From positions 6,908 through 70,907 of the forward strand of contig JAJFFD010000210.1 of the NCBI GenBank assembly GCA_021776805.1: 64,000 bases of DNA, written 5' to 3'. How positions within the stretch are numbered: position 1 is the first letter of the stretch; each line of letters starts with the position of its first letter. Below the pieces are notes generated by a model. The model was not told the DNA's origin. It saw only the letters and a list, made by a program, of their open reading frames with translations, and made no database searches. The stretch comes from Planctomycetota bacterium (lineage in GTDB: Bacteria > Planctomycetota > UBA1135 > UBA2386). Both the position numbers and the translations under genes were made by a program. Positions 5,444-62,884 of the stretch are shown here, piece by piece.

Positions 5444-5480
5444 CTCCACTTCCCCCCATGCCATGGCCGATATGTAGGAC

Positions 5481-6874: not shown

Positions 6875-6979
6875 GCTCGTTTACGACGATGCACCGGAAA
6901 GGCCACATTCTCCGCTCAACGAGTGGTCTGGTCCTGTCGATAGGAAGGGTGAGTTAGCCCGCTGGGGCACGAGGTTGTC

Positions 6980-37168: not shown

Positions 37169-37288
37169 AGGTTCTTCCTCAGGACTAGATCGGAATACTG
37201 TCACCCTGCACTTGACCTTGTGGTGGCCAGATGCGGGTTCAGCAGTCTGCTGTCGAGATAGACAACAGCCGGCCACTCAGGGCGGAGC

Positions 37289-39188: not shown

Positions 39189-39442
39189 ATTCCCCTGTGC
39201 TCCTTGGTGTTTATCTGAAGTTGCTTCGCGGGCGAGTGTTAGTCGTCACCGCATGATCCGGCGGAACTGTCCAGTCCTTGAGGAATGGAGGCCTCGAGGC
39301 GCCACTTTTTTCACCGAAATCAGAGAACTGACCAAAAGGCGGACAGCCCATCGTGCCGAAAGACTCCTTGGCAAGGTGCTCTGCGGTGTTCACGCCAATG
39401 CAGCAAGCGCCCGCAGAAATCCCCAACAGTCGAGGTCGGCAA

Positions 39443-41541: not shown

Positions 41542-41546
41542 AGAAC

Positions 41547-42431: not shown

Positions 42432-42434
42432 GCC

Positions 42435-45954: not shown

Positions 45955-47078
45955 GCTCCAGCCTGGCGGGAATGTCGGAGACCGATCTCCGGCAGGGCTT
46001 CGAGACCTTCGTCGATGCAGCCTGTCGCTTGGAGGATAGCTATCGTGAGCTCAAGTCTCGCGCGGCCAAGATTGATCTGGAGCTGGCAGCGAGCAATGCC
46101 AAGCTCGCCGCAACCCTGCGCGAGCGAGAGGCGGTCTTTTCTGCCATGCCCGTTGGCGTGGTCGCTTTTGATGCTGCGGAGCAGAGTTCCTGGTCAAACC
46201 CGGAAGCGGATCGGCTCCTGGCCCTGGCCAGCGAGAACGGCCTGAGGCTCGGCGATATGGAACCCGGCCTCTTCGAGTCATCGAAGTTGGCGGTGAATAT
46301 CAATCGTGTGCCGCTTCCCGATGGCGGCAGCCTGCTGCTGCTCGAGGATCGCAGCAAGCTCCTGCGCCTCGAAAGAGAGGTGCATCGATTGGATCGGCTG
46401 GCCGGGCTGTCCGAGTTGGCGCTCGGTGTTGCTCATGAGATCAAAAACCCCCTCAACGGCGTAGTGGGCTTTGCATCTCTGCTGGAGCGATCCGAGGACC
46501 CAGCGGTGATGAAACGCTTCTCCCAGAAGATCCTGCAAGGGCTCGCACAGGTGGACGAAATCGTCAAAGCCATGCTCGAGTTTGCCCGCCCACAGGCGAA
46601 GGGCATGGCGATGGCCTCCCTGGCGAGCATTATTCGCGAGGCAGCTTCCCATGCGGGATTGTCTGCCGGTCATCTGTCTCTTGCCGGGGACTTGGAGACG
46701 GAAGCGCAGAGCTTCGCATTGGTTCGAGTTCTGACCAATCTCTTCCGCAACAGCCTCGAAGCAGCTGGCAGCTCCAGCGTGAAGATTTCGGTCCGAGTCG
46801 AGACCGCTGTCGAGGCGACGCAAGTCTTGGTCAGTGATGACGGGCCAGGAATCGATCCTGAACTCGGTGATCGCATTTTCGAGCCATTCGTGAGCACCAA
46901 GGAGCGGGGCCACGGACTCGGACTGGCTCTCTCATGCCGCGTGCTCTCCTTTCTTGGTGGATCGGTGGAGCTCGCCGAAGGCGAAGCATCCGGTGCATGC
47001 TTCAGAATCCAATTGCCGGGCCTGTCCACGAGCATCCTGCCGAATCCTCAGCTAGCGGAGAGAGCGGTCGATGACTGA
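45939..47078 (+). CDS. Cytoplasmic PAS-domain sensor histidine kinase (FleS/FlrB/NtrB-like)
   Basis: I place the start at ATG 45939. The longer ORF from 45741 lies inside the upstream gene. It has a PAS-like region (AVFSAMPVGVVAFDAAEQSSWSNPEADRLL), H-box VAHEIKNPLNG, N-box LTNLFRNSLEA, G1 DDGPGI and G2 GHGLGLAL. Confidence 0.85.
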   Translation: MAGQVSSSLAGMSETDLRQGFETFVDAACRLEDSYRELKSRAAKIDLELAASNAKLAATLREREAVFSAMPVGVVAFDAAEQSSWSNPEADRLLALASENGLRLGDMEPGLFESSKLAVNINRVPLPDGGSLLLLEDRSKLLRLEREVHRLDRLAGLSELALGVAHEIKNPLNGVVGFASLLERSEDPAVMKRFSQKILQGLAQVDEIVKAMLEFARPQAKGMAMASLASIIREAASHAGLSAGHLSLAGDLETEAQSFALVRVLTNLFRNSLEAAGSSSVKISVRVETAVEATQVLVSDDGPGIDPELGDRIFEPFVSTKERGHGLGLALSCRVLSFLGGSVELAEGEASGACFRIQLPGLSTSILPNPQLAERAVDD

Positions 47079-48429
47079 GACTGGTTCCAAGGGCTCAGTC
47101 CTCGTTGCCGATGATGAGCCGATCAGCAGGGAATTCCTAGCCGAGGCCCTGGGCATGCTCGGTCTGCAGGTCACCGAAGCCGAGGATGGTCTCTCGGCGA
47201 TCGCGATGCTCAATGAGCAGCATTTCGACTACGTCTTCACCGATCTGCAGATGCCTGGGCAGGACGGTTTGGCGGTGCTTGGCGCATCCAAGAAGCAGGA
47301 TTCGGATCGACCAGTCGTCCTGGTGACCGCTCATGGCACCATGGAGGTAGCCATCGAAGTGATGCGCAAGGGCGCCGACGACATCCTGGAGAAGCCAGCC
47401 ACTGCCAATGACCTGGAGCTGTCCTTGATGCGGGTGATGGATCGCGCTCGGCTCCGGCGAGAGAACCGCTACTTCCGCCGGCAGAGCGTTGGCCAAGGGA
47501 TGCTCGTCAAGAGCGAGCAGATGCAGCAGCTCATGGATCTGATCGGCAAGGTCGCTCAGAGCAAGGCTTCGGTTCTGATTCGCGGTGAAAGCGGAACTGG
47601 CAAGGAGCGGGTCGCTGCCGAGCTCCACCGACGCAGTGGACGCGCCACGGGACCATTCGTGAAGATCAATTGTGCGGCCATCCCAGAGAGCTTGATGGAG
47701 AGCGAGCTATTCGGGCACGAGGCGGGCGCCTTTACAGGTGCAAACAAGCGTCGTGAGGGCTGCTTCGAGCTCGCCGATGGTGGCACTCTCTTTCTCGACG
47801 AGATCGGGGAGATGGCACATGGCATGCAGGCCAAGCTTCTCCGAGTGATCCAGGAAGGTGAATTCAGCCGTGTCGGTGGCAGCCACGCGGTCAATGTGGA
47901 TGTGCGCATCGTCTCGGCGACCAACCGTGATCTCGAGCGTGACATCGAAGAGGAACGCTTCCGTGGCGACCTCTTCTATCGACTCAATGTTGTGCCTCTG
48001 AACGTGCCTCCCCTGCGCGAGCGCAAGAGCGAGATCCAGGACTTGGTGGCGCATTTCCTGCCCGAGACTGTTTCCGTGAGTGGGCCGGCCATGCGACTTC
48101 TCGAGTCGCATGATTGGCCAGGCAATGTCAGAGAGCTGGAGAACATGATTCAGCGCGCTTGCATTCTCTGTACTGGTGGAGTCATTCAGGCTGCGCTGAT
48201 CGCCCCCTGGTTGGGCCTTGGCGTCGAGCCCACGGTCGAGATACCCGGCCCGGTTCAGCCTGCCGAGAGCCTGGCAGGCCGCAGCTTGAGCGAAGTCGAG
48301 ATGCAGGCGATCTTCGAAACTTTGGACTTTTGCGAGGGCAATCGGACCAAGGCAGCGAACATGCTTGGCATTGGGGTTCGTACCCTCTTCAACAAGCTCA
48401 AGGGACAGAGTCCCCAACGCAGCCACTGA
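47071..48429 (+). CDS. Sigma-54-dependent response regulator (FleR/FlrC/NtrC-like)
   Basis: 452 aa, overlapping the kinase gene by 8 nt. The REC acceptor Asp is in DYVFTDLQMPG. It has Walker A GESGTGKE, the GAFTGA loop present exactly, and a C-terminal HTH RTKAANMLGIGVRTLFNKLK. Confidence 0.93.
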   Translation: MTETGSKGSVLVADDEPISREFLAEALGMLGLQVTEAEDGLSAIAMLNEQHFDYVFTDLQMPGQDGLAVLGASKKQDSDRPVVLVTAHGTMEVAIEVMRKGADDILEKPATANDLELSLMRVMDRARLRRENRYFRRQSVGQGMLVKSEQMQQLMDLIGKVAQSKASVLIRGESGTGKERVAAELHRRSGRATGPFVKINCAAIPESLMESELFGHEAGAFTGANKRREGCFELADGGTLFLDEIGEMAHGMQAKLLRVIQEGEFSRVGGSHAVNVDVRIVSATNRDLERDIEEERFRGDLFYRLNVVPLNVPPLRERKSEIQDLVAHFLPETVSVSGPAMRLLESHDWPGNVRELENMIQRACILCTGGVIQAALIAPWLGLGVEPTVEIPGPVQPAESLAGRSLSEVEMQAIFETLDFCEGNRTKAANMLGIGVRTLFNKLKGQSPQRSH

Positions 48430-52257: not shown

Positions 52258-52989
52258 ATGACTGACCACAAGACGATGATCGAGGCGAAGGGCCTCACCA
52301 AGCACTACGGCTCCTTCGCAGCGATCGAAGACCTGAGCTTTAAAATCCACGCCGGCGAAGTGGTCGCCTTTCTCGGTCCCAACGGGGCCGGCAAGTCGAC
52401 CACCATGAAGATCTTGACCGGCTACCTGGCGCCCTCTTCTGGAACGGCGCTGATCGCTGGCCTGGATGTGCTGGATCAGCGCATCGCCGCGGCAGAGAAG
52501 ATCGGCTACCTCCCGGAGAACGGGCCGCTCTACCCGGACATGACGCCCCGTGAGCTCCTGCACTTCTTCGGCGAAGCCCGTGGCCTGTCCACCAATCAGG
52601 TTCATCAACGCCTGGCGGTGGTCACCGAGGAGTGCGTTCTCGCAGAAGTCCTCGAGCGGCCCATCGGGCAGCTCTCCAAGGGCTTTCGCCAGCGAGTGGG
52701 CATGGCCTGCGTCCTGCTCCACGATCCGGAAGTGCTCATCATGGATGAGCCGACTACCGGCCTCGATCCCAACCAGATCAAGCACGTGCGCGAGACCATC
52801 AAGAATCTGGGCAAGACCAGAACTGTGCTCCTCTCGACACACATCCTGCAGGAAGTCGAAGCGATGGCTTCTCGAGTGATCATGGTCAACGAAGGTCGGC
52901 TGGTTTTTGATGGCAGCCCGGAAGAGCTGCGTGGCAAGGGTGAAGGCAGCCTCGATGGCGCCTTCCATGCACTGACGGAGGTGAACTGA
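52258..52989 (+). CDS. ABC-2 type transporter ATP-binding protein (GldA-like)
   Basis: 243 aa. It has Walker A GPNGAGKST, signature LSKGFRQR, Walker B VLIMDEPTTGLD and H-loop LSTH. Confidence 0.92.
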   Translation: MTDHKTMIEAKGLTKHYGSFAAIEDLSFKIHAGEVVAFLGPNGAGKSTTMKILTGYLAPSSGTALIAGLDVLDQRIAAAEKIGYLPENGPLYPDMTPRELLHFFGEARGLSTNQVHQRLAVVTEECVLAEVLERPIGQLSKGFRQRVGMACVLLHDPEVLIMDEPTTGLDPNQIKHVRETIKNLGKTRTVLLSTHILQEVEAMASRVIMVNEGRLVFDGSPEELRGKGEGSLDGAFHALTEVN

Positions 52990-55643
52990 TGGCCAAGCCA
53001 GTTGTGCGTGCGATCTTCAAGCGTGACCTGCGAAGCTGGTTCGGCAATCCGACCGGCTACGTGTTCATTATTCTCTTCGTGTTCCTCTCCGCCGCCGCGC
53101 TGGTGGGACCGACTCAGTTCTTTCAGAGCAACCTGGCCAACCTGGATACCCTGAACGAGTGGTATCGGATGCTGCTGCTCCTCTTCATCCCGGCGGTGAC
53201 TATGGGGATCTGGGCCAGCGAGCGCAGCCACGGCACCAATGAGCTGCTGTTTACATTGCCAGCCAGCGACGCGCAGATTCTGCTGGGCAAGTATCTGGCT
53301 GCGGCGGGGATCTACACCGCGGCGCTGCTCTTCACCATCTCACTGCCCATCGGGCTGAGCTTTCTGGGTAGCCCGGACTACGGACTGATCTTCAGCAACT
53401 ATGTCGGCTACTGGTTGCTGGGTTTGATGCTGATCAGCGTCTCCATGGTGGGCTCCCAGCTCACCGAGAATCTGACGGTTTCCTTCATCCTCGGCGCTCT
53501 GCTCTGCACCCTGGTGATGTTCTCCGAGGACATCATCTCGAGTGTTGCGCCGGTGCTCGGTAGGACATGGGGGTCTTACGGTCCGAATGCACTCTTCGAA
53601 GAGATGGGCCGCGGCGTGGTATCGGCGGCTTCCGTGCTGCTCTTTGCCGCCATGACCATCGCCTTCCTCTATCTCAACCTGACCCTCCTTTCGCGCCGAC
53701 ACTGGGGCCGCCGGGAGAACCAGGGACTGCACCACGGCTTGCGTTTCAGCTCCTTGCTGGTGGTTGCGATCTCCTTGGGAGTCATCGGCATCAACCAGCT
53801 GCCCCGCATGGATAGCACCAGCGAGCAGATTCACTCCCTGTCCGATGAGACTCTGGCTCTGCTCTCGGATCTCGATCCGGATCGCCCGGTCTACGTGCAG
53901 GCCTATGTCTCGGACGAGGTGCCGGCGGAATACGTGCAGACCAGGCGCACTCTTCTCAATTTGCTCCGCCAATACGATTCGATCGGAGGCTCGGCCGTGG
54001 AAGTGCGCATCGTGCCCACGGAGAAGTTCACGGCAGAGGCAACCGAGGCGCAGCAGAACTACGGCATCAGATCCCAGCAGCGAGTCAGCGAGGAAGGTGC
54101 TCGCCTGCGCAGCTTCGATATCTACCTCGGACTCGCCTTCCAGTGCGGCACCGAAGAAGTGGTCCTACCCTTCATGGATCGCAAGATCCCGGTGGAGTAC
54201 GAAGTTACGCGCTCGATTCGGGTGGTCGCCAGCACAGAACGGAAGCGAGTCGGCGTGCTCAAGACGGATGCGGATCTCTTCGGTGGCTTCGATTTTCAAA
54301 CCATGCGTCAGAGCCCGGAATGGGACATCGTGCGCGAGCTCAAGCTGCAGTACGAGGTGCAGTCCGTTGGGGTCGACGAGGACTATCCTGCCGGTCTGGA
54401 TGTGCTCCTGGTGCCCATGGCCTCGAGCCTGACACAGCCACAGATGGATCGGCTGGCCACCTACATCTCTTCGGGCAATCCAACTCTGATCCTCGATGAC
54501 CCTATGCCCTTCTCCTTGCCGGGCCTTGCTCCGGATGAGCCCAAGGGTGGTCAGCAGAATCCGATGATGATGGGGCAGCAGCCGCCGCCGGAGCAGAAGG
54601 GCGATATCGAGTCCATGCTCAGCGCCTTCAACATCCGCTGGCAGAAGAGCACCATCGTCTGGGCCTCACACAATCCGCACCCGGATCTCGAGCTGGTTCA
54701 GCCCGAGATCGTCTTCGTAACGGAGAACTCTGGAGCTCCAGAGCCCTTCAACGAGGACCTGTCCATCACTTCGGGATTGCAGGAGCTGATCACCATCTTC
54801 GGTGGCGAGGTGAAGCCCGGCGACTACGCCAGCATCACCTTCACTCCGTTGATGCAGGCGGGTCCCGATTCGGGCCTGCTTGCCAAGCAGGTGGCCTTCA
54901 GGTTCAACCCATTTGGCGGTGGCGCCATGCTTGATCCCAATCGCCAGTTCCGCCAAGACGGTATGCCCAAGATTCTGGGCTGCATGGTGCAGGGTAAGCC
55001 GGTCGACGATGCGGAGCATGCGATCAGCCTGATCTTCATTCCGGACATCGACTTCATCGGTCGCGACTTCTTCCGGATTCGTAGCCAGGGCTTTGGTGGT
55101 ACCAAGATCCAGCTCGACAACGTCACCTTCATCCTCAACTGCGTGGACTACCTGGCCAAGGACGAGAGTTTCATCGATCTCCGCAAGCGTCGGCCCCTGC
55201 ATCGTTCCCTGGTGACCATCGAGGCCGAGCAGGAGGTCTACAACAAGACCTGGTTGGGTGAGAAGGCAAAGGCGGAGGAGGATGCGGTGCTTGCCCTCAG
55301 TGATGCCCAGGCCCGCCTCGACGAGCGCGTCAATCAGGTCAAGAACGATGCCGAATTGGATGCGCGCGCCAAGGACATTCAGATCCAGGCCATCCAGAAC
55401 GCCGAGCAGCGCAAGCTGGATCTACGCAAGGCCCGCATCGAAGAGGAAAAGCAAAAGGCCATCGATCAAGCCAAGGCGGACAAGCTGGCCCAGCAGCAAG
55501 CCATTCAGACTCGGTACACCAGCTTGACTCTGGTCGGGGCGCCTATCCCGGCGGTGGTCGTCGCCTTTGTCTTCTGGATACGAAGAAGAAAACGTGAGCT
55601 CGAGGTTGTTCCCAGCTCTCGACGTGTTGGAGGTGCAGCATGA
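52989..55643 (+). CDS. Fusion of ABC-2 permease (GldF-like) with GldG-like auxiliary domain
   Basis: 884 aa. The N-terminal 240 aa have six hydrophobic segments and the motif ASERSHGTNELLFTLP (GldF-type). Next comes a GldG-like domain (PVYVQAYVSDEVPAEYVQTRRTLLNLLRQYDSIGGSAVEVRIVP). It ends with a Lys/Glu/Gln coiled coil and a terminal TM (LVGAPIPAVVVAFVFWI). Confidence 0.8.
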   Translation: MAKPVVRAIFKRDLRSWFGNPTGYVFIILFVFLSAAALVGPTQFFQSNLANLDTLNEWYRMLLLLFIPAVTMGIWASERSHGTNELLFTLPASDAQILLGKYLAAAGIYTAALLFTISLPIGLSFLGSPDYGLIFSNYVGYWLLGLMLISVSMVGSQLTENLTVSFILGALLCTLVMFSEDIISSVAPVLGRTWGSYGPNALFEEMGRGVVSAASVLLFAAMTIAFLYLNLTLLSRRHWGRRENQGLHHGLRFSSLLVVAISLGVIGINQLPRMDSTSEQIHSLSDETLALLSDLDPDRPVYVQAYVSDEVPAEYVQTRRTLLNLLRQYDSIGGSAVEVRIVPTEKFTAEATEAQQNYGIRSQQRVSEEGARLRSFDIYLGLAFQCGTEEVVLPFMDRKIPVEYEVTRSIRVVASTERKRVGVLKTDADLFGGFDFQTMRQSPEWDIVRELKLQYEVQSVGVDEDYPAGLDVLLVPMASSLTQPQMDRLATYISSGNPTLILDDPMPFSLPGLAPDEPKGGQQNPMMMGQQPPPEQKGDIESMLSAFNIRWQKSTIVWASHNPHPDLELVQPEIVFVTENSGAPEPFNEDLSITSGLQELITIFGGEVKPGDYASITFTPLMQAGPDSGLLAKQVAFRFNPFGGGAMLDPNRQFRQDGMPKILGCMVQGKPVDDAEHAISLIFIPDIDFIGRDFFRIRSQGFGGTKIQLDNVTFILNCVDYLAKDESFIDLRKRRPLHRSLVTIEAEQEVYNKTWLGEKAKAEEDAVLALSDAQARLDERVNQVKNDAELDARAKDIQIQAIQNAEQRKLDLRKARIEEEKQKAIDQAKADKLAQQQAIQTRYTSLTLVGAPIPAVVVAFVFWIRRRKRELEVVPSSRRVGGAA

Positions 55644-57307
55644 GCCCTGTTATCAAGACGATTGTATATGCAGCCGCGGCCATCGGACTCGCCCTGGTGG
55701 CGCTGATCTCGGCGCCTGGCGCCAAGGACTTGGAGCTCTTCAGTGACGAGGGTGAGCTCTTCTTCCCGGATTTCGATGATCCTCTCGCAGCCACGGATCT
55801 GGAGGTCTGGGAGTTCATCCCTGACACGGCGGAGGCCTCGGCCTTCAACGTCAAGAGCGAGAAGGGCTACTGGACCATTCCCTCCCACTCCAACTATCCA
55901 GCGGATGCAGAGGATCGCATGGCCAAGGCCGCGGTCATGCTCATCGACCTGCGCAAGGCAGCGGTCAAGTCAGACCAGATCCAGGACCACGCCAATTTTG
56001 GAGTGGTCGATCCAACCGAGCAGGACCTTGATCCGGAAGGTCGCGGCAAGCGCATTACCTTTCGCGACAGCAGCGGGTCGGTGCTTGGCGATTTGATCAT
56101 CGGCAAGCAGGTTGAGGACCGCCCAGGTCAATTTTATGTGCGCTTGCCCGGTAAGAAGCGCACCTACGCCGTCGAAAGAGACTTCGATCTCTCCACCAAC
56201 TTTGAGGATTGGATCGAGCGCGACCTTCTCAAAGTCAGCGCCACCGATCTCAGTCAGATCGTCTTCGACAACTATTCTGTCGACGAGACGCGGAACACTC
56301 TCGTGCAGGGCGACGTCGTTGAGCTCGAAAAGCCGGAGACAGATTGGGTAGTCAAGGGCCTGGCCGAGGATGAGGAGACTGCAAAGGAAGTCATCGACAC
56401 GGCGCAGAGCACTCTCACGGATCTGAAGATAGTCGGGGTGCGGCCGAAACCCGAAGGCCTCACCGCTGCACTCGAGCGGGCCCAGGGAATTACGCGGGAA
56501 CTCCTGGCGAGCCAGTTGGCGCGCAAGGGCTTCTTCTTGTCCCAGGGCAAGCTCTACTCCAACGAGGGTGACCTCTTCGTCAAGACGAGCAAGGGCGTGG
56601 TCTACACCCTCAAGTTTGGCGAGGTCATCTTTGGCACCGGGGACAGCATTACTGCCGGTGGTGGCGACGAGGCCACTGCGGCTCAGGATGCCAGCGCCGG
56701 CGAGGATGCAGCCAAGGGATCACACCGTTATCTCATGGTCACCGCCAGCTTCGATGCGGGTCTCCTCGAAGCCCCCGAGGGCACGACTGTCCCCCAGAGT
56801 CATCTCGACAAACTGAAGACCGCTCGTAACGAGATGGAGAAGATCATCTCGGCCATCGATTCTTACGCGCAGAACAAGGGTGAACACCCACCGGCCCTTA
56901 CGGATCTCGTCACCGGTGAGCAGAAGTTCATCGGTGCTCTGCCACAAGATCCCTGGGAGAAGGACTTTGTCTACGAGAAGACCGAGGACGGATTCGTTCT
57001 GACCTGCCTTGCCGAAGACGGCGTAGCTGGCGGCGAAGGCATCAACGCGGATCTACGCTCCGACGCCTTCAACATGATCGATGACCAGCAGGCCATCGTG
57101 GATAGGCATCAGGATCACGCCAACAAGATCACCGAAGGCGAGGAAGAAGTGCAGAAGCTCAATGAGCGCTTCGGACCGTGGTACTACGTGATCGATGCGG
57201 AGGCCTTCAACAAGCTGCATCTGGCCCGCGAGCAGTTGGTCAAGAAGAAGGAAGTCGAAGCGACTCCCGAGGCTGGCAAGGACGGCGGACAGGGCGAAGG
57301 CAAGTAG
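55640..57307 (+). CDS. Membrane-anchored periplasmic protein (DUF4340-like position/architecture) with C-terminal GspG-type pseudopilin globular domain
   Basis: 555 aa, coupled by ATGA. It has an N-terminal anchor (IVYAAAAIGLALVALISAPG). It sits in the position normally held by the DUF4340 partner of GldG-like proteins. Residues encoded at about 56800-57080 read ALPQDPWEKDFVYEKTEDGFVLTCLAEDGVAGGEGINADL, matching the GspG motif LPxDPWGxxYxY...f.l.SlGaDGxxGGeGxxaDi. Confidence 0.65.
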   Translation: MSPVIKTIVYAAAAIGLALVALISAPGAKDLELFSDEGELFFPDFDDPLAATDLEVWEFIPDTAEASAFNVKSEKGYWTIPSHSNYPADAEDRMAKAAVMLIDLRKAAVKSDQIQDHANFGVVDPTEQDLDPEGRGKRITFRDSSGSVLGDLIIGKQVEDRPGQFYVRLPGKKRTYAVERDFDLSTNFEDWIERDLLKVSATDLSQIVFDNYSVDETRNTLVQGDVVELEKPETDWVVKGLAEDEETAKEVIDTAQSTLTDLKIVGVRPKPEGLTAALERAQGITRELLASQLARKGFFLSQGKLYSNEGDLFVKTSKGVVYTLKFGEVIFGTGDSITAGGGDEATAAQDASAGEDAAKGSHRYLMVTASFDAGLLEAPEGTTVPQSHLDKLKTARNEMEKIISAIDSYAQNKGEHPPALTDLVTGEQKFIGALPQDPWEKDFVYEKTEDGFVLTCLAEDGVAGGEGINADLRSDAFNMIDDQQAIVDRHQDHANKITEGEEEVQKLNERFGPWYYVIDAEAFNKLHLAREQLVKKKEVEATPEAGKDGGQGEGK

Positions 57308-57326: not shown

Positions 57327-58232
57327 CTAGCTCCTGCTGCCTGCTATTTGCAGGGGGCAGCTAGCTCGGCTCATCATGCGGCAAAGGTCTTCGATGCCGA
57401 GGCTGGCTTCCCAACCCATCTGGCCCATGCTCCTCGGGTCACAGACGAGAATCGGGTATTCGGCCCGATAGCCTTCGATCTCTCGAACATGCTCTCTCCA
57501 GTCGAGGCCGTGTTCTGCAAAGCAGAGCCGGGCCCAGTCACGAATGCTGTGGGCCTGACCCGAGCCGATGACCGCCTCGAAGACTTCATCCTGCTGAATC
57601 AGAGTCAGGATTCCAGCGGCCACGTCCCCGGCGAAGGTCCACTCCTTGGCTACGGTTGTGTCGCCGAGTTCGAGGCAGTCGAGTTCTCCTGCGGCGATCC
57701 TGCGAGCGCCGTCGAGAATCTTCATGCTCACGTGCTCCGGTCCGCGCAGGGGGCTCTCGTGGTGGAAGAGGTAGCCCACGTAGGTGGCTAGCCCGCGATC
57801 GCGAAAGTACCGCGCCGCATGCACCGAGTGGATGCGTTCCACGGCGTAGGCGCTGGCGGCGTCAAAGGGATCCTGCTCATGAATGGGATCGCCCACATTC
57901 AGGAACTGCAGACCTGAGCCGGTGATGAAGACCCGCGCCCTAGGGCAATGGTCCCATGCGGCCTGGAGCACGTTCCAAGTGCCACCGCTGATAGTGCGGT
58001 GATTTTCGAAGATCGCATCCTGCCTGGTGCTGGACCTTGCGGCCAGATGAAAGATCAGCTCTGGCCGATGCTCCGCGATGATTGCATCCACGAATTGCCG
58101 GTCGCCCACATCGCCTTTGCAATGCCCATGCTGTCGTGAGCTGCCGATGACTTCATAGCCGGCCTCAGTACAGAGGCGTGACAAGTACTGTCCGTCCTGC
58201 CCGCCGACTCCGAATATGACCGCCTTTCCCAT
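57327..58232 (-). CDS. GDP-mannose 4,6-dehydratase-like short-chain dehydrogenase/epimerase
   Basis: 301 aa from ATG 58232. It has a Rossmann motif FGVGGQDGQYL, a Gmd-like FHHESPLRGPEHVSMKI and LGDTTVAKEWTFAGDV. The catalytic YxxxK position reads YAVER. Confidence 0.8.
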   Translation of the reverse strand: MGKAVIFGVGGQDGQYLSRLCTEAGYEVIGSSRQHGHCKGDVGDRQFVDAIIAEHRPELIFHLAARSSTRQDAIFENHRTISGGTWNVLQAAWDHCPRARVFITGSGLQFLNVGDPIHEQDPFDAASAYAVERIHSVHAARYFRDRGLATYVGYLFHHESPLRGPEHVSMKILDGARRIAAGELDCLELGDTTVAKEWTFAGDVAAGILTLIQQDEVFEAVIGSGQAHSIRDWARLCFAEHGLDWREHVREIEGYRAEYPILVCDPRSMGQMGWEASLGIEDLCRMMSRASCPLQIAGSRS

Positions 58233-58317
58233 CCGCCTCGCTTCCGCTTTCATCGGAAGGGCGAGGAGCCTGGCTGGAACCTTTCGGCGAAGTCCAGCGG
58301 CCCTCCCTGCCGATAGC

Positions 58318-59340
58318 ATGGGAGTGAAGAGGGTTCTCTACGTGGGAATGGGTAGGGCCTGGGGAGATATCGCCAGGGGTGCAGGCTACGAGGATCAGTT
58401 CTTCCGCCGCAGCCTGGAGGATCATCCCGGCCTGGTGGTCGAGCATCTGGACTTCATGGCCAAGATCGCTCAGCGCGGTCAAGAGGATATGTCCGAGATC
58501 CTGTGGCGGCGGGTCTGCGAGAGCCGCCCGGACATGGTCTTCCTGGTTCCCTTCGCTGACTGGGCCGGACCTCTGCGAGAGACCGTGCGGCGCATCACCG
58601 AGTGCAGCAGTGCCAAGACCGTTCTCTGGATCTGTGATGATCCCTGGCAGTTCGAGGACTTCTCTTCTCGTTGGGCGCCCTGCGTCGATCACATCATCAC
58701 GACGGATCCTGGCATGCTGTCGGCATATCGCGCGATTGGCTGCGAAGACCGCCTGGTAATCAGTCAGTGGGGAGTCAATACGTCCATCTACTCGGCAAAG
58801 ACGGTTGCGCAGGACATCGACGTGAGCTTCGTCGGGCATGCACACAGCGATCGCCAGGCAAGCATCCGAGCCATCGAAGCCGGAGGCATCGAGGTTCAGG
58901 TCTTCGGCCGTGGCTGGGGGGCTCGCGGTCAGAGGCTGAGCGATGGCGAGATGATCGATGTCTTTCGTCGATCCAAGATCAATCTGAATCTGGGCTTGTC
59001 CATCGAATCGAGCTGCCGGCAAATCAAGGCGAGGAACTTCGAGGTCCTGGCTGCTGGAGGATTCTTGATCACCCAACGAGTCCCGTACCTCGATCGATAT
59101 CTGGAAGATGGCAGAGACTTGGTGATGTACGAGCACTGCTCGGAGATACCGCAGTTGATTGAGCGGTACCTGAGCGATAACGAGAGTCGTGCGGCGATCG
59201 CCAGACGTGGTGCCGCGCGCTGCCGCAGAGAGCATGACTGGCAGCAGCGTTTCGTCGAAATCTTCGACGCTATCGGCTTCGACCCGTTGAGTTCAAATAG
59301 AGCCGTTTCGGGCCCACAGAGGGTTCAGCTGGGCGCTTAG
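58318..59340 (+). CDS. CgeB-family / GT1-like glycosyltransferase
   Basis: 340 aa from ATG 58318. The C-terminal half KINLNLGLSIESSCRQIKARNFEVLAAGGFLITQRVPYLDRYLEDGRDLVMYEHCSEIPQLIERYLSDNESRAAIARRGAARCRREHDWQQRF is typical of CgeB-like glycosyltransferases. Confidence 0.65.
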   Translation: MGVKRVLYVGMGRAWGDIARGAGYEDQFFRRSLEDHPGLVVEHLDFMAKIAQRGQEDMSEILWRRVCESRPDMVFLVPFADWAGPLRETVRRITECSSAKTVLWICDDPWQFEDFSSRWAPCVDHIITTDPGMLSAYRAIGCEDRLVISQWGVNTSIYSAKTVAQDIDVSFVGHAHSDRQASIRAIEAGGIEVQVFGRGWGARGQRLSDGEMIDVFRRSKINLNLGLSIESSCRQIKARNFEVLAAGGFLITQRVPYLDRYLEDGRDLVMYEHCSEIPQLIERYLSDNESRAAIARRGAARCRREHDWQQRFVEIFDAIGFDPLSSNRAVSGPQRVQLGA

Positions 59341-59389
59341 AAACTCCGATAAGTCCATTCGGTGCACTGTTTCGGGACGCACGCGGGCA

Positions 59390-59839
59390 ATGGCGGAAAC
59401 ACTAGGATCACTTTGCGACAAGCTGACGATCGTCAAGCTGAAGCAATGGCACGCTGAAGAAGATTCGAAGCGGGCCAGCTTGAAGACTCAGGAGAGCTTG
59501 TTGCGCGGAGAGCTTGACGAGTTCGTCAGTGACGCCACCGCCGGTGCAATCCCGGCAGAGCGACTCACCTTTGCGGCCAACAAGGTGCTGAAGGGTGAGG
59601 CGAGTCGAGTGCCGAACGCAGAAGGAAGTATTGGCGAGGTCTTTGCCGAGCTGGCTCGCGTGAATTGCGAGCTTTGGCACGAGCAGGAAAAGGTCTACGA
59701 GTTCGAGGCGGTGCCCGATGGGGAGAGGGTGCCGATGGTCAAGAAGCTGGGTGTCCTCAATATCGAGCGCACCAAATGCATCGACGCTATCGACAATCGG
59801 TTTCTCGAACTCCTCAGTCGAGAGGAGCAAGTTGTATGA
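59390..59839 (+). CDS. Small conserved-looking hypothetical protein coupled to the C-methyltransferase
   Basis: 149 aa, helical. Its stop overlaps the downstream start (ATGA). It contains a Trp/His-rich motif NCELWHEQEKVYEF. I cannot assign it to a family with confidence. Confidence 0.5.
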   Translation: MAETLGSLCDKLTIVKLKQWHAEEDSKRASLKTQESLLRGELDEFVSDATAGAIPAERLTFAANKVLKGEASRVPNAEGSIGEVFAELARVNCELWHEQEKVYEFEAVPDGERVPMVKKLGVLNIERTKCIDAIDNRFLELLSREEQVV

Positions 59840-61161
59840 GTCATCCTGAAGACCTCATGGTTTCTCCGTCGGAAGTCAGCTCGCAGACCTATGTGAGTTT
59901 CGACTGCTGCCGAGTCTGCGGCGGAAAGCGCATGGTTCCTGTGCTGGATCTCGAGCAACAGTGCATCGGCAATGCCTTTCATCATGCCGATGATCCTGCC
60001 AGCGAGACTGCTCCCCTCGAGCTAGTGCGCTGCAACGAGTGCAGCCTGGTTCAGTTGGCTCATTCCGTCGACACGAGTCTGATGTACAGCACCTACTGGT
60101 ACAAGTCGGGTGTCAACCGGACGATGCGGGAGCATCTTTCCGGGCTTGCACAGCAGGCACAGCGATTGGTGACCTTGGATGCAGGCGATGCGGTGATCGA
60201 CATCGGTTGCAATGATGGCACTTCACTGAGTTGCTACCCTGAATCCGCTCGTCGAATTGGTGTGGATCCGAGCAATATCGTTCCGACTGTCTGTGACCAC
60301 TTCGTCAATGACTACTTTTCTTGGCAGGCTGTCGAAGGCGCTCTGGCTGGGAAGAAGGCGAAGGTGATCAGCTCCATCGCGATGTTTTACGATCTCGATG
60401 ACCCGCACGCCTTTGTCGAGAGCATCGAGAATTGCCTCCATCCTGAGGGTGTTTGGGTCCTCGAACTGAGTTATCTGCCGTCGATGCTGCGTGCAGTTTC
60501 TTATGACACCATTTGTCATGAGCACGTGACCTACTACAGATTGCGGACCTTCGAGCGTCTCCTCGCCGAAACCGGGCTCGAGCTCTTCGATGTCGAGTTC
60601 AATGACTGCAATGGCGGCTCCTTCCGCCTCTTCGTTGCGCCGAAGAACAGTCGCGAAGTCAGCAGTCGCCTCAGTGTTGCCAGGATCGAAGAGGCCAACG
60701 GTCTCTATGACACCAGGTACCCCTATGAAGGCTTCCAGACCCGGGTCTTCCGCGCAAAGGAGGCTTTCCAGCGCTTCCTTTCCGAGGCCAAGACCGAAGG
60801 CAAGAAGGTCTACGGTTACGGCGCGTCGACGAAAGGCCAGGTGACTCTGCAGTACTGTGGCGTCAAGCCAAAGCAGATGGTCGCCATCGCGGAAAGGAAC
60901 CCTGACAAGTACGGGTTGTACACGCCAGGCACCAATATCCCGATTTGTTCAGAGTCGGAGATGCGTGCGGCCAACCCGGATTATCTGGTGGTCCTGCCCT
61001 GGCACTTCATCGGTGAGTTCTTGCAACGCGAAGAGGCCTACCTGCGTGGTGGCGGCCAGATCGTAGTGCCGCTGCCCGAATTCAGGATCTACAGCGAAGC
61101 CGACCTGCCTAAAGTTGGTTATCGATCCGCCGTCGGAGCCAGGCCTCCGTTCTTCGATTGA
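59836..61161 (+). CDS. NDP-sugar C-methyltransferase (Zn-ribbon + class I SAM MTase + C-methyltransferase C-terminal domain)
   Basis: 441 aa from ATG 59836. It has Zn-binding CCRVCGGKRMVPVLDL...VRCNECSLVQL, SAM motif VIDIGCNDGTSL, and a C-terminal Rossmann-like VYGYGASTKGQVTLQYCGV. Confidence 0.85.
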   Translation: MSHPEDLMVSPSEVSSQTYVSFDCCRVCGGKRMVPVLDLEQQCIGNAFHHADDPASETAPLELVRCNECSLVQLAHSVDTSLMYSTYWYKSGVNRTMREHLSGLAQQAQRLVTLDAGDAVIDIGCNDGTSLSCYPESARRIGVDPSNIVPTVCDHFVNDYFSWQAVEGALAGKKAKVISSIAMFYDLDDPHAFVESIENCLHPEGVWVLELSYLPSMLRAVSYDTICHEHVTYYRLRTFERLLAETGLELFDVEFNDCNGGSFRLFVAPKNSREVSSRLSVARIEEANGLYDTRYPYEGFQTRVFRAKEAFQRFLSEAKTEGKKVYGYGASTKGQVTLQYCGVKPKQMVAIAERNPDKYGLYTPGTNIPICSESEMRAANPDYLVVLPWHFIGEFLQREEAYLRGGGQIVVPLPEFRIYSEADLPKVGYRSAVGARPPFFD

Positions 61162-62884
61162 TCGCAGCTCCGGTCTCCGAGTCGATCGGGGGTGCTTGGA
61201 GATTCAGGATTCTCTTGAGGGCATAGGCGGCAGCTTCTCGACCGGCGGCCGGAAACTGCTTGCGCTTAAGGACACCGACGAGATAGATCGCGAGCTCCTT
61301 GCTGCGCTTCTTACTCATCGCCTTGACCAAATCATCGGGCACAGTCTGCTTGCGCAGCTGACGCTCGATACGGTCCAGGTCCAGTCTGCGCACCAAATCC
61401 AGGGCCTCGGTAGAGACCTTGGTCTTGCGGTTATCGGCAATGCGGTAGACCTCTTCGATGCTGTCCTGATATTCGTGTCCGATCGCCAGGCTGAAGACAT
61501 GCTTGAGGATCAGCTGCTCGTCTTCGAGGGAGATACAGGATCCATTGCCAAACTCGGCGATGTCGGCGAAGCACTCTTCCGTGGCCTTTTGCACCTTACT
61601 ACCACTATGCGGAGTGGTCATGATGGAGTGCACGAAGGAGCGTCCATCGCGAGCGAAGCCCCGCACAAGTCGTTTGATCTTTTTGACGCTCTTGGGCTGG
61701 GGAGGGGCGTCACCAATAAGAACCACCACACGCTTCGCCCCCGGCTGCCAGTTCTGATCGAAGGCCTCATCGAGTCCTTCAAAGACTGCCTCCGGGGTAT
61801 CGCCCCCGCCGCCCGCATCCACCGACTGCATGAAGTTGACTGAGCGGTAGTAGTCCGAGCCCAGGGGGACGGATCTGGTCAGGTAGTCTTCGCTGGGGCC
61901 GCGATCACGGTAGGTCACGATTCCCATGCGAGTCTCAGGGATGAGGAAGTGCAAGACCCCAACCATGCGCTCGATGTGATCCTTCGTTGCGTTGAGCACC
62001 GGATTCATCGATCCAGTGCTGTCGAAGACGAAGATGATCTCGAGGCCGGATTTTCTGAGGTTGCTGACCGTGCGTTTGAAGCCGCCGGAGAGTTTGTTTT
62101 GCCCACCGAGATTCAGCACGTCCTTGTTTGACTGGCCTTTGATCTTCTCGAAGAGGGCGTCCGAATCGCCGAAGGCTTCAGCAAACTTGTTCGAGAGCGG
62201 ATTGAACTTCTCGTTCGGTGCTTCAGCGACCTCGACTTCCTCCGATTCGATGTGGATGTCCTGCAGGGATTGATCCTCTTCACTAAGCCGCTCGATTTCG
62301 ACCGGATCGTCAGTCTCAGGATGTGGTCCGACTACCTCGCTGCGATCTTCAGTTGAGACGATGGTCGCGAAGACCGATGCCCGGGGTGGTGGTGGTGGAA
62401 CCAGCCACCAGAGGAGAAAGAGGTAGATGATCAGATGGAAGGCTACGGAGCTCAGGACCCATGGAGTCCGGCGCATGACCGAGGCCATGTTCTCCGCGAA
62501 ACTCTCTTGCTGTCCCAGGCCGATGTGTAATCCAGGCCCGATGTGTGTCGACTGGAACTCGGGCATGAGCAAGGCCGGGGCCTTGCCAGCAGAGATCTGG
62601 ACCTGAATCTCGCCGAAGCGGAGCTTGGCCTTTCCAGGATTGAAGCTTGTCGCCTGAATCCTTGTGTCATCGACCCATGTGCCGGCCAAGGACCCCAGGT
62701 CTTCGACATGTACCTGGCCATCACGAAAACAAAGCCAGGCATGACGAGCGGAGATTGACCCATGGACGATGCGGATGTCGTTCTCCGGATCGGACCCAAT
62801 CGTGTAAGTGAGGTCAGGCCGGATCGGCAGATCCTGGCTGCCGATCCTCACCGTCAACTGGCGAGGGCCTGAATTCTGGGTCAT
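61109..62884 (-). CDS. FHA domain / TM / von Willebrand factor A domain protein
   Basis: 591 aa. The FHA domain reads YTIGSDPENDIRIVHGSISARHAWLCFRDGQVHVEDLGSLAGTWVDD. The TM reads WVLSSVAFHLIIYLFLLWWLV. An acidic linker follows. The vWA domain has the MIDAS motif IIFVFDSTGSM (DxSxS). Confidence 0.85.
   Translation of the reverse strand: MTQNSGPRQLTVRIGSQDLPIRPDLTYTIGSDPENDIRIVHGSISARHAWLCFRDGQVHVEDLGSLAGTWVDDTRIQATSFNPGKAKLRFGEIQVQISAGKAPALLMPEFQSTHIGPGLHIGLGQQESFAENMASVMRRTPWVLSSVAFHLIIYLFLLWWLVPPPPPRASVFATIVSTEDRSEVVGPHPETDDPVEIERLSEEDQSLQDIHIESEEVEVAEAPNEKFNPLSNKFAEAFGDSDALFEKIKGQSNKDVLNLGGQNKLSGGFKRTVSNLRKSGLEIIFVFDSTGSMNPVLNATKDHIERMVGVLHFLIPETRMGIVTYRDRGPSEDYLTRSVPLGSDYYRSVNFMQSVDAGGGGDTPEAVFEGLDEAFDQNWQPGAKRVVVLIGDAPPQPKSVKKIKRLVRGFARDGRSFVHSIMTTPHSGSKVQKATEECFADIAEFGNGSCISLEDEQLILKHVFSLAIGHEYQDSIEEVYRIADNRKTKVSTEALDLVRRLDLDRIERQLRKQTVPDDLVKAMSKKRSKELAIYLVGVLKRKQFPAAGREAAAYALKRILNLQAPPIDSETGAAINRRTEAWLRRRIDNQL

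What the first reader, a model, noticed from the sequence alone, without database searches (positions are those of the whole stretch)
56800..57080. GspG-type pseudopilin globular domain embedded at the C-terminus of the GldG-cluster partner protein
The 555-aa protein encoded downstream of the GldF-GldG fusion contains ISAIDSYAQNKGEHPPALTDLV...ALPQDPWEKDFVYEKTEDGFVLTCLAEDGVAGGEGINADLRSD. This matches the hallmark of the type II secretion major pseudopilin GspG globular domain (LPxDPWGxxYxYxxPGxxGxfDLxSLGADGxxGGEGxxADI).

It lacks the N-terminal prepilin leader and hydrophobic helix at that location. Instead, the domain is the tail of a membrane-anchored periplasmic protein. A pseudopilin head domain recruited into an ABC-transporter-associated envelope complex is something I have not seen described.
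Basis: partly seen in the sequence, partly recalled or inferred. Interest (0 to 1): 0.55.

Follow-up and report, generated by a model that had tools for sequence, protein, structure and literature searches.

The report
Pseudopilin head inserted in transporter subunit
One uncultured lineage of Planctomycetota has inserted the globular head of the type II secretion major pseudopilin, without its filament-forming helix, into a variable loop of the DUF4340 accessory protein of a widespread ABC transporter; the domain transplant is real, conserved and apparently undescribed, but what it does is still inferred.

Summary
ORF 55640-57307 (+, 555 aa) is the third, translationally coupled gene of an operon: GldA-like ATPase, GldF-GldG fusion, DUF4340 protein. 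Residues ~386-477 (nt 56795-57070) are a genuine GspG-type pseudopilin head. Pfam T2SSG scores 34.9 bits (cut-off 21). A profile of the module hits EpsG in the PDB at E=1.3e-13. The AlphaFold2 model (pLDDT 85) matches only EpsG structures in the PDB (TM 0.71-0.79, rmsd ~2 A). The DPW core and the two calcium-ligand aspartates (D460, D471) are conserved in 79-88 of 88 distinct copies. There is no prepilin leader or hydrophobic helix, so it cannot be a filament subunit.

One correction: the module is not the C-terminal tail. It is an ~85-aa insertion into a hypervariable loop and is followed by a conserved helix-strand element (aa 478-536). In other Planctomycetota, Acidobacteriota, Zixibacteria, KSB1, Ignavibacteriales and others, the same slot holds 35-236 aa of low-complexity sequence while the operon is conserved. 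Module-bearing proteins form one clade (81/100 bootstraps), which fits a single acquisition.

Databases already auto-annotate both domains, but I found no paper describing the architecture. The likely role is a calcium-stabilised globular protrusion or contact module. That role is inferred, not shown. Moderate interest.

The parts
52258..52989 (+). GldA-like ABC transporter ATPase (243 aa), first gene of the operon
   Evidence: ABC_tran 105.6 bits. The best NCBIfam match is GldA_ABC_ATP at 279.6 bits, below its equivalog cut-off of 402.6. The stop overlaps the next start codon (TGATG at 52987-52991).
52989..55643 (+). GldF-GldG fusion (884 aa): ABC-2 permease, large periplasmic GldG-type domain, charged helical stretch and C-terminal hydrophobic anchor
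   Evidence: ABC2_membrane_2 aa 58-237, DUF7088 aa 279-384, ABC_transp_aux aa 418-718 (116 bits). GldF and GldG NCBIfam hits are below cut-off. It is conserved upstream of the DUF4340 gene in all loci with enough flank.
55640..57307 (+). DUF4340 accessory protein (555 aa) that carries the inserted pseudopilin head
   Evidence: ORF. ATGA start/stop overlap and a GGAGG at 55629-55633. AF2 model: pLDDT 85.1, pTM 0.74. 3204 representatives at E<1e-3.
55646..55708 (+). N-terminal hydrophobic helix (aa 3-23): membrane anchor or signal-anchor, not a prepilin leader
   Evidence: Helix 3-23 in the model. The sequence VIKTIVYAAAAIGLALVALISA has no G/FTLIE motif, and there is no N_methyl Pfam hit.
55871..56461 (+). 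DUF4340 Pfam domain (aa 78-274), part of the beta-rich periplasmic body (aa ~50-371)
   Evidence: PF14238, 71.1 bits, cut-off 25. Secondary structure.
56726..56752 (+). Conserved strand RYLMVTASF (aa 363-371): the upstream anchor of the variable loop
   Evidence: R363 is invariant across 150 diverse representatives. Strand 361-371 in the model.
56795..57070 (+). Inserted GspG-type pseudopilin head (aa 386-477): alpha1C helix 386-413, short helix 420-423, strands 444-448 and 451-456, and the calcium loop
   Evidence: Pfam T2SSG, PDB profile search E=1.3e-13, Foldseek to EpsG, pLDDT 86-96 across the region. Present only in one clade.
56948..56956 (+). DPW motif (D437-P438-W439), a hallmark of the GspG core
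   Evidence: 88, 86 and 87 of 88 distinct module sequences. It aligns with the DPW of EpsG.
57008..57052 (+). Putative calcium-binding loop L457-AED460-GVAGGEGINA-D471
   Evidence: D460 in 79/88, G464 in 82/88, G465 in 88/88, D471 in 88/88. It aligns residue for residue with EpsG LGADGQEGGEGTGAD. The equivalent Asp pair (D117/D125) binds calcium in PulG and OutG (PMC13081927).
57071..57247 (+). Conserved C-terminal element (aa 478-536): long helix 478-511, then the RFGPWYYVI strand 510-519 and short helices; it closes the loop back onto the DUF4340 body
   Evidence: L507, R510, F511, W514 and Y516 are >=90% conserved across 150 diverse representatives with or without the module. Secondary structure.

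Best explanation
The protein is the membrane-anchored periplasmic DUF4340 subunit of a three-gene ABC-2 transporter (GldA-like ATPase, GldF-GldG fusion, DUF4340 protein). That system is conserved across Planctomycetota, Acidobacteriota, Zixibacteria, KSB1, Ignavibacteriales, Calditrichaceae and Latescibacterota. In the common ancestor of one uncultured Planctomycetota clade, the soluble head of a GspG-type major pseudopilin (alpha1C helix, beta-sheet and calcium loop) was inserted into a hypervariable surface loop of this subunit. The class III leader and the hydrophobic alpha1N polymerisation helix were not included. Other lineages carry a disordered Pro/Glu/Lys/Ala-rich segment of very variable length in the same loop. 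Shown here: the homology, the fold, the insertion topology, the single-clade distribution, purifying selection on the fold core and on both calcium-ligand aspartates, and operon conservation. Inferred: because alpha1N is missing, the module cannot enter a pseudopilus. It most likely acts as a rigid, calcium-stabilised globular protrusion that replaces the floppy loop. That protrusion would serve as a spacer or protein-contact surface within the periplasmic superstructure of the transporter.
For: Homology and fold. Insertion rather than tail: the model places the module between strand 361-371 and helix 478-511 plus strand 514-519. The anchor-to-anchor distance is ~146 aa in the 20 module-bearing GTDB loci, against ~61 aa (35 aa in three Acidobacteriota loci) outside Planctomycetota and 56-83 aa in most other Planctomycetota (two hold 130- and 166-aa low-complexity spacers). 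The slot holds 35-236 aa of low-complexity sequence elsewhere, with no T2SSG hit. Single origin: an NJ tree of the core sequence, with the insert excluded, recovers the 30 module-bearing proteins as an exact bipartition in 81 of 100 bootstraps. Selection: D437 88/88, P438 86/88, W439 87/88, P417 88/88, D460 79/88, G465 88/88, D471 88/88. Not a pilin: no N_methyl hit, a polar linker before the module, and GspG equivalog score 24.4 against a cut-off of 88.85. Operon: gldA and gldFG sit upstream in every locus with enough flank, with or without the module, and start/stop codons overlap in the window. No T2SS or T4P genes in the 64-kb window. DUF4340 proteins have been predicted independently to be ABC transporter subunits (bioRxiv 10.64898/2025.12.11.693642), and a DUF4340 domain is essential in V. 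spinosum (PMC12283558).
Against: No experiment or complex model bears on the role of the module. Model coordinates and PAE were not available, so I could not see whether the module packs against the DUF4340 body or the long helix. Calcium binding is inferred from aligned residues only, and 9 of 88 copies have Gly at the first Asp position. The substrate and function of the whole GldA/GldFG/DUF4340 system are unknown. A neutral 'filler' role is hard to separate from a specific contact role, although the strong conservation argues against pure filler. Gain rather than loss rests on parsimony across phyla, not on a rooted tree.
Confidence: 0.6

Rival explanations
1. The module is a docking or mimicry element. 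By resembling a GspG subunit, it couples the ABC transporter physically or in a regulatory way to a type II secretion or type IV filament machine encoded elsewhere in these genomes, for example by binding the assembly platform, the secretin vestibule or the side of an endopilus.
For: The module matches only major pseudopilins, not minor pseudopilins or type IV pilins. Surface-exposed parts, including the calcium loop, are conserved. From general knowledge, not tested here: Planctomycetota encode many pseudopilin-like proteins, so partner machines may exist.
Against: There are no T2SS or T4P genes in the window, and no conserved neighbour beyond the three-gene operon in the module-bearing loci. 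From general knowledge of pseudopilus structures, pseudopilin-pseudopilin and pseudopilin-platform contacts depend mainly on alpha1N, which is absent here. The alpha-beta loop, which determines secretion specificity in OutG and PulG (PMC13081927), is about 13 residues shorter here than in EpsG.
Confidence: 0.1
2. The module is essentially a neutral structured filler. The loop tolerates any content, as its extreme variability elsewhere shows. A pseudopilin head landed there once and persists with no function beyond being soluble and stable.
For: The slot holds anything from 35 to 236 aa of unrelated low-complexity sequence in other lineages. Some copies tolerate a further K/E-rich insertion inside the module's beta-hairpin (P0012 and P0010).
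Against: Sequence conservation within the module is as strong as in the core of the protein: invariant DPW, P417, G465 and D471 at only ~45% overall identity. No member of the clade has lost or degraded it (30 of 30 in the tree; 24 of 24 hit Pfam). A neutral insert would be expected to decay or be lost in some lineages.
Confidence: 0.2
3. The similarity is spurious or an assembly or annotation artefact, such as a chimeric contig joining a gspG fragment to a DUF4340 gene.
For: The single-sequence PDB search is only marginal (E=2e-4), and the NCBIfam GspG equivalog score is far below its cut-off.
Against: The same architecture with the same junctions occurs in 20 independent GTDB species genomes, including closed chromosomes (L004, 7.19 Mb), and in more than 100 protein clusters from NCBI, JGI, ENA and Logan. 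The profile and fold evidence is strong. The reading frame is continuous, and conserved family sequence lies on both sides.
Confidence: 0.01

Closest known systems
GspG/EpsG/PulG/XcpT, the major pseudopilin of the type II secretion system (Pfam T2SSG PF08334; PDB 3FU1, 4LW9, 3GN9, 2KEP, 1T92)
   Same: It has the same alpha1C helix, beta-sheet head fold (TM 0.71-0.79, rmsd ~2 A), the same LPxDPWGxxY core motif, and the same L-x-x-D-G-x-x-G-G-E-G-x-x-x-D calcium-loop spacing as Vibrio EpsG.
   Different: It has no class III signal peptide, no N-methylation site or Glu5, and no hydrophobic alpha1N, so it cannot polymerise. The alpha-beta loop is about 13 residues shorter. It is embedded inside another protein and continues C-terminally into a long helix. 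It is not in a T2SS gene cluster, and it scores 24 bits against the 88.85-bit GspG equivalog cut-off.
DUF4340 (PF14238) accessory proteins of GldG-type ABC-2 transporters without the insert (e.g. loci L025-L080: Acidobacteriota, Zixibacteria, KSB1, Ignavibacteriales)
   Same: They share the N-terminal anchor, the beta-rich body, the RYLxV strand, the terminal helix and the RFxxWYYV motif (38-47% identity in the best aligned segment; conserved anchor motifs), and the same three-gene operon.
   Different: They carry a 35-236-aa low-complexity segment where the window protein has a folded pseudopilin head.
GldA/GldF/GldG gliding-motility ABC transporter of Flavobacterium johnsoniae (TIGR03522/03518/03521)
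   Same: These are the best-scoring NCBIfam models for the two upstream genes, and the domain content is the same: ABC ATPase, ABC-2 permease and GldG-type ABC_transp_aux domain.
   Different: All three scores are far below the equivalog cut-offs (279.6 vs 402.6; 122.8 vs 288.5; 45.9 vs 389.85). GldF and GldG are fused here. The window encodes flagellar genes rather than Bacteroidota gliding or T9SS genes. From general knowledge: the Flavobacterium gld set does not include a DUF4340 gene.
Modular or 'pilin-like' proteins of type IV filaments (CpaL/TadG, GspK, PilY1-PilK complexes)
   Same: These are also cases where a pilin-type globular module is combined with other domains (bioRxiv 10.64898/2026.02.14.705861).
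   Different: Those proteins remain components of the filament tip complex. Here the head sits in an ABC-transporter subunit, with no filament context detected.

Membership tests
Pfam T2SSG domain (PF08334) | Score at or above the curated gathering threshold (21 bits) | tested here: met
   34.9 bits in the full protein and 39.6 bits for the module alone. 24 of 24 family modules match, best E=7e-16.
GspG major pseudopilin (functional T2SS subunit; NCBIfam TIGR01710 equivalog) | Equivalog score at or above 88.85 bits | tested here: not met
   24.4 bits, with only aa 428-473 aligned.
GspG major pseudopilin (functional T2SS subunit; NCBIfam TIGR01710 equivalog) | Class III (prepilin) signal peptide with a G/F-T-L-x-E cleavage and methylation motif | tested here: not met
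   No N_methyl hit at E<=1. The protein N-terminus MSPVIKTIVYAAAAIGLALVALISAPGAKD and the residues before the module (LEAPEGTTVPQSHL) lack the motif.
GspG major pseudopilin (functional T2SS subunit; NCBIfam TIGR01710 equivalog) | Hydrophobic alpha1N helix contiguous with alpha1C, required for membrane insertion and filament packing | tested here: not met
   The Pfam alignment starts at profile position 10. The helix begins at aa 386 after a polar linker, and no hydrophobic stretch lies between aa 340 and 386.
GspG major pseudopilin (functional T2SS subunit; NCBIfam TIGR01710 equivalog) | Alpha-beta head fold (alpha1C packed on an antiparallel beta-sheet) | tested here: met
   Foldseek returns EpsG chains 4lw9, 3fu1 and 3gn9 as the only significant PDB hits, with prob 1.00, TMt 0.71-0.79 and rmsd 1.8-2.5 A.
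GspG major pseudopilin (functional T2SS subunit; NCBIfam TIGR01710 equivalog) | C-terminal calcium-binding loop with two ligand aspartates | tested here: met
   At the sequence level, D460 (79/88) and D471 (88/88) align with the two Asp of the EpsG LGADG...GADI loop, and the homologous D117/D125 bind calcium in PulG and OutG (PMC13081927). Actual calcium binding cannot be tested with these tools.
GspG major pseudopilin (functional T2SS subunit; NCBIfam TIGR01710 equivalog) | Encoded with T2SS core genes (GspD/E/F and others) | tested here: not met
   No secretin, GspE/F or prepilin peptidase families appear among 43 window proteins scanned. The rest of the genome could not be examined.
DUF4340 family (PF14238), accessory subunit of GldG-type ABC-2 transporters | DUF4340 domain above the gathering threshold | tested here: met
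   71.1 bits against a cut-off of 25, aa 78-274.
DUF4340 family (PF14238), accessory subunit of GldG-type ABC-2 transporters | Encoded immediately downstream of an ABC ATPase and a permease/GldG-type auxiliary gene | tested here: met
   The window operon has overlapping start/stop codons, and the same order is seen in all related loci with enough flank.
Bacteroidota GldA/GldF/GldG gliding-motility transporter (equivalogs TIGR03522/03518/03521) | Scores at or above the equivalog cut-offs | tested here: not met
   279.6 < 402.6; 122.8 < 288.5; 45.9 < 389.85. These are GldAFG-like proteins, not orthologues.

The most novel reading that the evidence does not exclude
The GspG head has been co-opted as a subunit mimic that plugs this ABC-2 transporter into a type II secretion or type IV filament apparatus. 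For example, it could occupy a GspG-binding site on the assembly platform or secretin. That would create a hybrid trans-envelope export machine specific to one Planctomycetota lineage. It would also be the first case of a type IV filament pilin head working outside a filament as an inter-machine adaptor.
Probability: 0.08. Interest if true: 0.8.

Novelty: new variant of a known kind. Interest (0 to 1): 0.42.

Why it matters
Pilin and pseudopilin heads are normally discussed only as the outer part of a filament subunit, tied to the N-terminal polymerisation helix. This clade shows that the GspG head, with its calcium site, is an autonomous and transplantable folding unit. It has been kept under selection for a long time in a non-filament protein. 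That gives pseudopilin biologists a natural 'head-only' construct. It also gives people working on the poorly understood GldG/DUF4340 ABC-2 systems a handle: the loop it occupies must be exposed and functionally tunable. A DUF4340 domain is reported as essential in Verrucomicrobium spinosum, and DUF4340 proteins are predicted transporter subunits in SAR11. The practical impact is limited, because the organisms are uncultured and the transporter's substrate is unknown.

Tried and rejected
1. GldFG-DUF4340 triple fusions. My ORF finder returned 1400-1680-aa ORFs in six loci. The GldFG match starts at a 107-nt offset, which is not a multiple of 3, so it lies in another frame. These are open off-frame stretches in high-GC DNA. 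Rejected.

2. Degenerate pseudopilin modules in other long-insert homologues. Ten representatives with 124-236-aa inserts show no T2SSG hit at E<=0.01, and their inserts are low-complexity P/E/K/A/T-rich sequence. Rejected.

3. Conserved flanking genes that might name a partner. None of 11 window neighbours recurs next to the operon in any module-bearing locus; only four module-less loci show a hit, to sigma54-regulator or metallophosphoesterase-family proteins. Among module-bearing loci, the only recurrent extra gene is a TlpA/redoxin-like gene, in 11 of 20, and the window lacks it. Not informative.

4. Raw p-distances on the core did not separate module-bearing from module-less proteins because they are saturated. 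A Kimura-corrected NJ tree with bootstrap did.

5. Foldseek gave no credible PDB relative for the DUF4340 body. Spindlin and LolA hits have E>0.03 and rmsd above 15 A.

6. Rfam found nothing in the window, so there is no rRNA for finer taxonomy. NCBI labels of the MAGs ('Brocadiaceae', 'Phycisphaerales', 'Planctomycetia') disagree with each other, and I did not trust them for naming the clade.

I replaced it with a local iterated HMM plus spot checks.

8. Literature searches for DUF4340, PF08334/T2SSG and 'pseudopilin-like domain' found no description of this architecture.
Full report
OBSERVATION

The window encodes a 555-aa protein at 55640..57307 on the + strand. It is the last gene of a compact three-gene unit:
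- a 243-aa GldA-like ABC ATPase (52258..52989);
- an 884-aa fusion of a GldF-like ABC-2 permease with a GldG-type periplasmic domain (52989..55643; ABC2_membrane, DUF7088 and ABC_transp_aux);
- the 555-aa protein itself.

The junctions are TGATG (52987-52991) and ATGA (55640-55643), with a GGAGG seven bases upstream of the last start codon. This indicates translational coupling. Pfam finds DUF4340 at aa 78-274 (71.1 bits) and T2SSG at aa 391-474 (34.9 bits, gathering cut-off 21, profile positions 10-107 of 108).

IS IT REALLY A PSEUDOPILIN HEAD?

Four independent lines say yes.
- Pfam: all 24 diverse copies of the module that I tested hit T2SSG (best E=7e-16), and the window's copy alone scores 39.6 bits.
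- PDB sequence profile: a profile built from those copies finds V. cholerae EpsG (3FU1, 4LW9) at E=1.3e-13 and V. vulnificus EpsG at 2.8e-13. Further hits are 2KEP at 2.9e-11, then 29JD, 1T92/5O2Y, 5WDA and 3G20. All are deposited as protein G or the major pseudopilin. No minor pseudopilin or type IV pilin appears.
- Predicted fold: a template-free AlphaFold2 model built on 64 family sequences is confident (mean pLDDT 85.1, pTM 0.74; 86-96 across the module). It gives helix 386-413, a short helix 420-423, strands 444-448 and 451-456, and a loop to residue 477.
- Structure comparison: Foldseek of the whole 555-residue model against the PDB returns EpsG chains as the only significant matches (probability 1.00, target-normalised TM 0.71-0.79, rmsd 1.8-2.5 A over 105-114 columns). 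The next hits have E>0.03 and rmsd above 15 A.

The HMM alignment lines up the family's ...kDPWgkdy... and ...lgaDkaegGegaaaDv... with EpsG LPKDPWGNDYQY and LGADGQEGGEGTGADI. The spacing between the two aspartates is identical to the Vibrio type. In PulG and OutG the homologous pair D117/D125 supplies the side-chain ligands of the stabilising calcium ion (PMC13081927).

WHAT IT IS NOT

It is not a pseudopilin subunit.
- The NCBIfam GspG equivalog scores 24.4 bits against a cut-off of 88.85.
- No N_methyl or prepilin motif is detected.
- The Pfam match begins at profile position 10, that is, at alpha1C.
- The fourteen residues before the helix (LEAPEGTTVPQSHL) are polar.
- The N-terminus of the protein is an ordinary hydrophobic anchor (helix aa 3-23) without the G/FTLIE signature.

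Without alpha1N the head cannot be inserted into the membrane as a pilin or packed into a filament core. The second point rests on established knowledge of type IV filament architecture. None of the 43 window proteins I scanned belongs to a T2SS or type IV pilus family. The window holds flagellar genes, squalene synthase-like genes, sigma54 two-component systems, an ABC importer and sugar-nucleotide modification genes.

The module is not the C-terminal tail. It is followed by a 34-residue helix (478-511), the strand RFGPWYYVI (510-519) and short helices up to residue 536. That C-terminal element is among the most conserved parts of the whole family: L507, R510, F511, W514 and Y516 are at least 90% conserved in 150 representatives clustered at 50% identity. 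The module therefore sits in an excursion between two conserved elements, the strand RYLMVTASF (R363 is invariant) and the terminal helix-strand.

DISTRIBUTION

A search of 5.8 billion proteins gave 1378 hits at E<1e-5. Of the 120 best clusters, 118 carry precomputed PF14238 + PF08334. They come from Planctomycetota MAGs, and some JGI records are even named 'DUF4340/Type II secretion system protein G'. An exhaustive search of 1.84 billion representatives found 3204 relatives at E<1e-3 and 902 at E<1e-30. A scan of one genome per GTDB species found at least 588 species with a relative.

For the best 80 loci I measured the distance between the two anchors and searched with an iterated HMM of the module:
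- 20 loci have about 146 aa and the module. Eighteen are labelled Planctomycetota or Planctomycetia; L012 and L046 carry an automatic 'Brocadiaceae' label.
- Loci from Acidobacteriota, Zixibacteria, KSB1, Ignavibacteriales, Calditrichaceae, Latescibacterota and Polarisedimenticolia have about 61 aa (35 in three Acidobacteriota) and no module.
- Other Planctomycetota (Isosphaeraceae including Singulisphaera, Planctomycetales, Phycisphaerales) mostly have 56-83 aa and no module; two (L036, L042) have 166- and 130-aa low-complexity spacers.

Among the 150 representatives, 13 (including the window's own protein) have the module. The rest have 23-236 aa in the slot. Ten long-insert examples show no T2SSG hit, and their inserts are low-complexity Pro/Glu/Lys/Ala/Thr-rich sequence. 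So the slot is a hypervariable, normally disordered loop, and one clade has filled it with a folded domain.

SINGLE ORIGIN AND SELECTION

I built a neighbour-joining tree (Kimura distances, 381 columns, 210 sequences) from the core only: 330 aa upstream of the first anchor plus the C-terminal element, with the insert removed. It recovers the 30 module-bearing proteins as an exact bipartition, in 81 of 100 bootstrap replicates. The module-less state is found in other Planctomycetota and in at least six other phyla. One gain within Planctomycetota is therefore more parsimonious than repeated loss. This is an inference, because the tree is unrooted.

Within the clade overall identity is only about 45%, yet conservation in 88 distinct module sequences is high:
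- D437 88/88, P438 86/88, W439 87/88;
- P417 88/88, A395 86/88, A405 83/88, L420 83/88, L423 86/88;
- D460 79/88, G464 82/88, G465 88/88, D471 88/88.

No clade member has lost the module. This is the pattern of a folded, functional domain whose calcium site is retained.

OPERON CONTEXT

In every related locus with enough flanking sequence, a GldA-like gene and a GldF-GldG fusion lie immediately upstream on the same strand, whether or not the module is present. Nothing else is syntenic with the window in the module-bearing loci. The transporter is therefore an autonomous, widely conserved three-gene system, and the module is a lineage-specific decoration of its third subunit.

The upstream genes best match the Flavobacterium GldA/GldF/GldG models, but far below the equivalog cut-offs. 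They are GldAFG-like proteins, not gliding-motility orthologues.

The only literature on DUF4340 in the searchable library offers two relevant points. A DUF4340 domain is essential in Verrucomicrobium spinosum (PMC12283558). A SAR11 DUF4340 protein is predicted to form a complex with neighbouring ABC transporter components (bioRxiv 10.64898/2025.12.11.693642).

MECHANISM

Shown: a GspG-type head lacking alpha1N, inserted in an exposed variable loop of a periplasmic, membrane-anchored ABC-transporter subunit. It has a single origin, is under purifying selection, and keeps its calcium ligands.

Inferred: the head cannot polymerise. It most likely replaces a floppy loop with a rigid, calcium-stabilised globular protrusion that serves as a spacer or contact surface within the transporter's periplasmic assembly (confidence about 0.6 for the whole statement).

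Rivals:
- An adaptor or mimic that couples the transporter to a T2SS or type IV filament machine (about 0.1). No such genes are nearby, the main interaction helix is missing, and the specificity loop is shortened.
- A neutral structured filler (about 0.2). This is disfavoured by the strong conservation and the absence of any loss.
- An artefact (about 0.01). This is refuted by recurrence in 20 species genomes, including closed chromosomes.

COMPARISON WITH WHAT IS KNOWN, AND NOVELTY

The head belongs to the Pfam T2SSG domain family, but the protein fails the defining features of a GspG pseudopilin: leader, alpha1N, equivalog score and gene context. The protein as a whole is a member of the DUF4340 family.

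Known proteins that combine a pilin-like module with other domains (CpaL/TadG, GspK, the PilY1-PilK complexes) are still filament components. I found no report of a pseudopilin head in a non-filament protein. However, the library excludes much of the subscription literature, and the domain pair is already visible in automated annotation.

I therefore rate it a new variant of a known kind: real, clean and evolutionarily neat, but a domain-shuffling event in an uncharacterised system of uncultured bacteria. Interest 0.42.

LIMITS

Calcium binding is inferred from aligned residues. The rest of these genomes could not be checked for T2SS genes. The clade could not be named beyond phylum.

Noticed in passing
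window 56753-57169 (aa 372-510) and the equivalent slot in L019-L080 and P0130-P0268: The loop between the RYLxV strand and the RFxxWYYV motif of DUF4340 proteins is hypervariable across phyla. It ranges from 23 to 236 aa and is usually Pro/Glu/Lys/Ala-rich low-complexity sequence, reminiscent of periplasm-spanning spacers. Its length seems to be lineage-specific: about 61 aa in most Acidobacteriota, Zixibacteria and KSB1, 35 aa in one acidobacterial group, and mostly 56-83 aa in other Planctomycetota.
   Followed up: partly
P0012 and P0010 (alignment A1, columns ~530-575): Some copies of the pseudopilin module carry a further 30-40-aa Lys/Glu/Asp-rich insertion between the two beta-strands of the head. 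In P0010 this drops the precomputed Pfam T2SSG hit. So the module itself tolerates loop expansion.
   Followed up: no
L004 9863-10645 (+) and the equivalent position in 11 of 20 module-bearing loci: A secreted TlpA/redoxin-like gene (ending ...YRGKVVLLDFWGFW) lies just downstream of the DUF4340 gene in about half of the module-bearing genomes. In L004 the frame appears to break at the thioredoxin motif. The window lacks this gene and has a GDP-mannose-dehydratase-like gene on the opposite strand instead.
   Followed up: partly
window 989-8493 (+) and 35804-38116 (-): There are two flagellar gene groups (FliF, FliG, FliI-type ATPase, FliM; and FliD plus flagellin) in this Planctomycetota genome. 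A sigma54 activator / histidine kinase cassette sits at 39353-48429.
   Followed up: no
window 8932-13911 (-): A 1659-aa ORF has no Pfam family at E<=1e-6. The 695-aa ORF at 28102-30189 (-) and the 474-aa ORF at 17491-18915 (+) also have none.
   Followed up: no
window 23485-26539 (+): Two consecutive squalene/phytoene synthase-family genes are followed by a flavin amine-oxidase gene. This arrangement resembles the three-step HpnCDE squalene pathway (resemblance from general knowledge, not tested).
   Followed up: no
window 55180-55643 (aa ~730-884 of the GldF-GldG fusion): The GldG part ends in a long, highly charged Ala/Glu/Lys/Gln-rich stretch that looks like a coiled coil, followed by a C-terminal hydrophobic segment (LTLVGAPIPAVVVAFVFWI). 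The conserved charged helix 478-511 of the DUF4340 protein, right after the module, could be its partner. This is speculation and was not tested.
   Followed up: no
L002, L006, L007, L009, L013, L016 (upstream of the DUF4340 gene): Stop-free stretches of 1400-1680 codons run through the GldFG gene in a different frame. This is a reminder that naive ORF extension in ~60% GC DNA creates false 'fusions'.
   Followed up: yes
window 61109-62884 (-): A 591-aa protein combines an N-terminal FHA domain, a predicted membrane segment and a von Willebrand factor A domain. It lies next to a sugar C-methyltransferase / glycosyltransferase cluster (57327-61161).
   Followed up: no
window 1-64000: No Rfam family reaches its gathering score anywhere in the 64 kb, so no RNA family, tRNA and rRNA included, was detected in this stretch.
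   Followed up: yes
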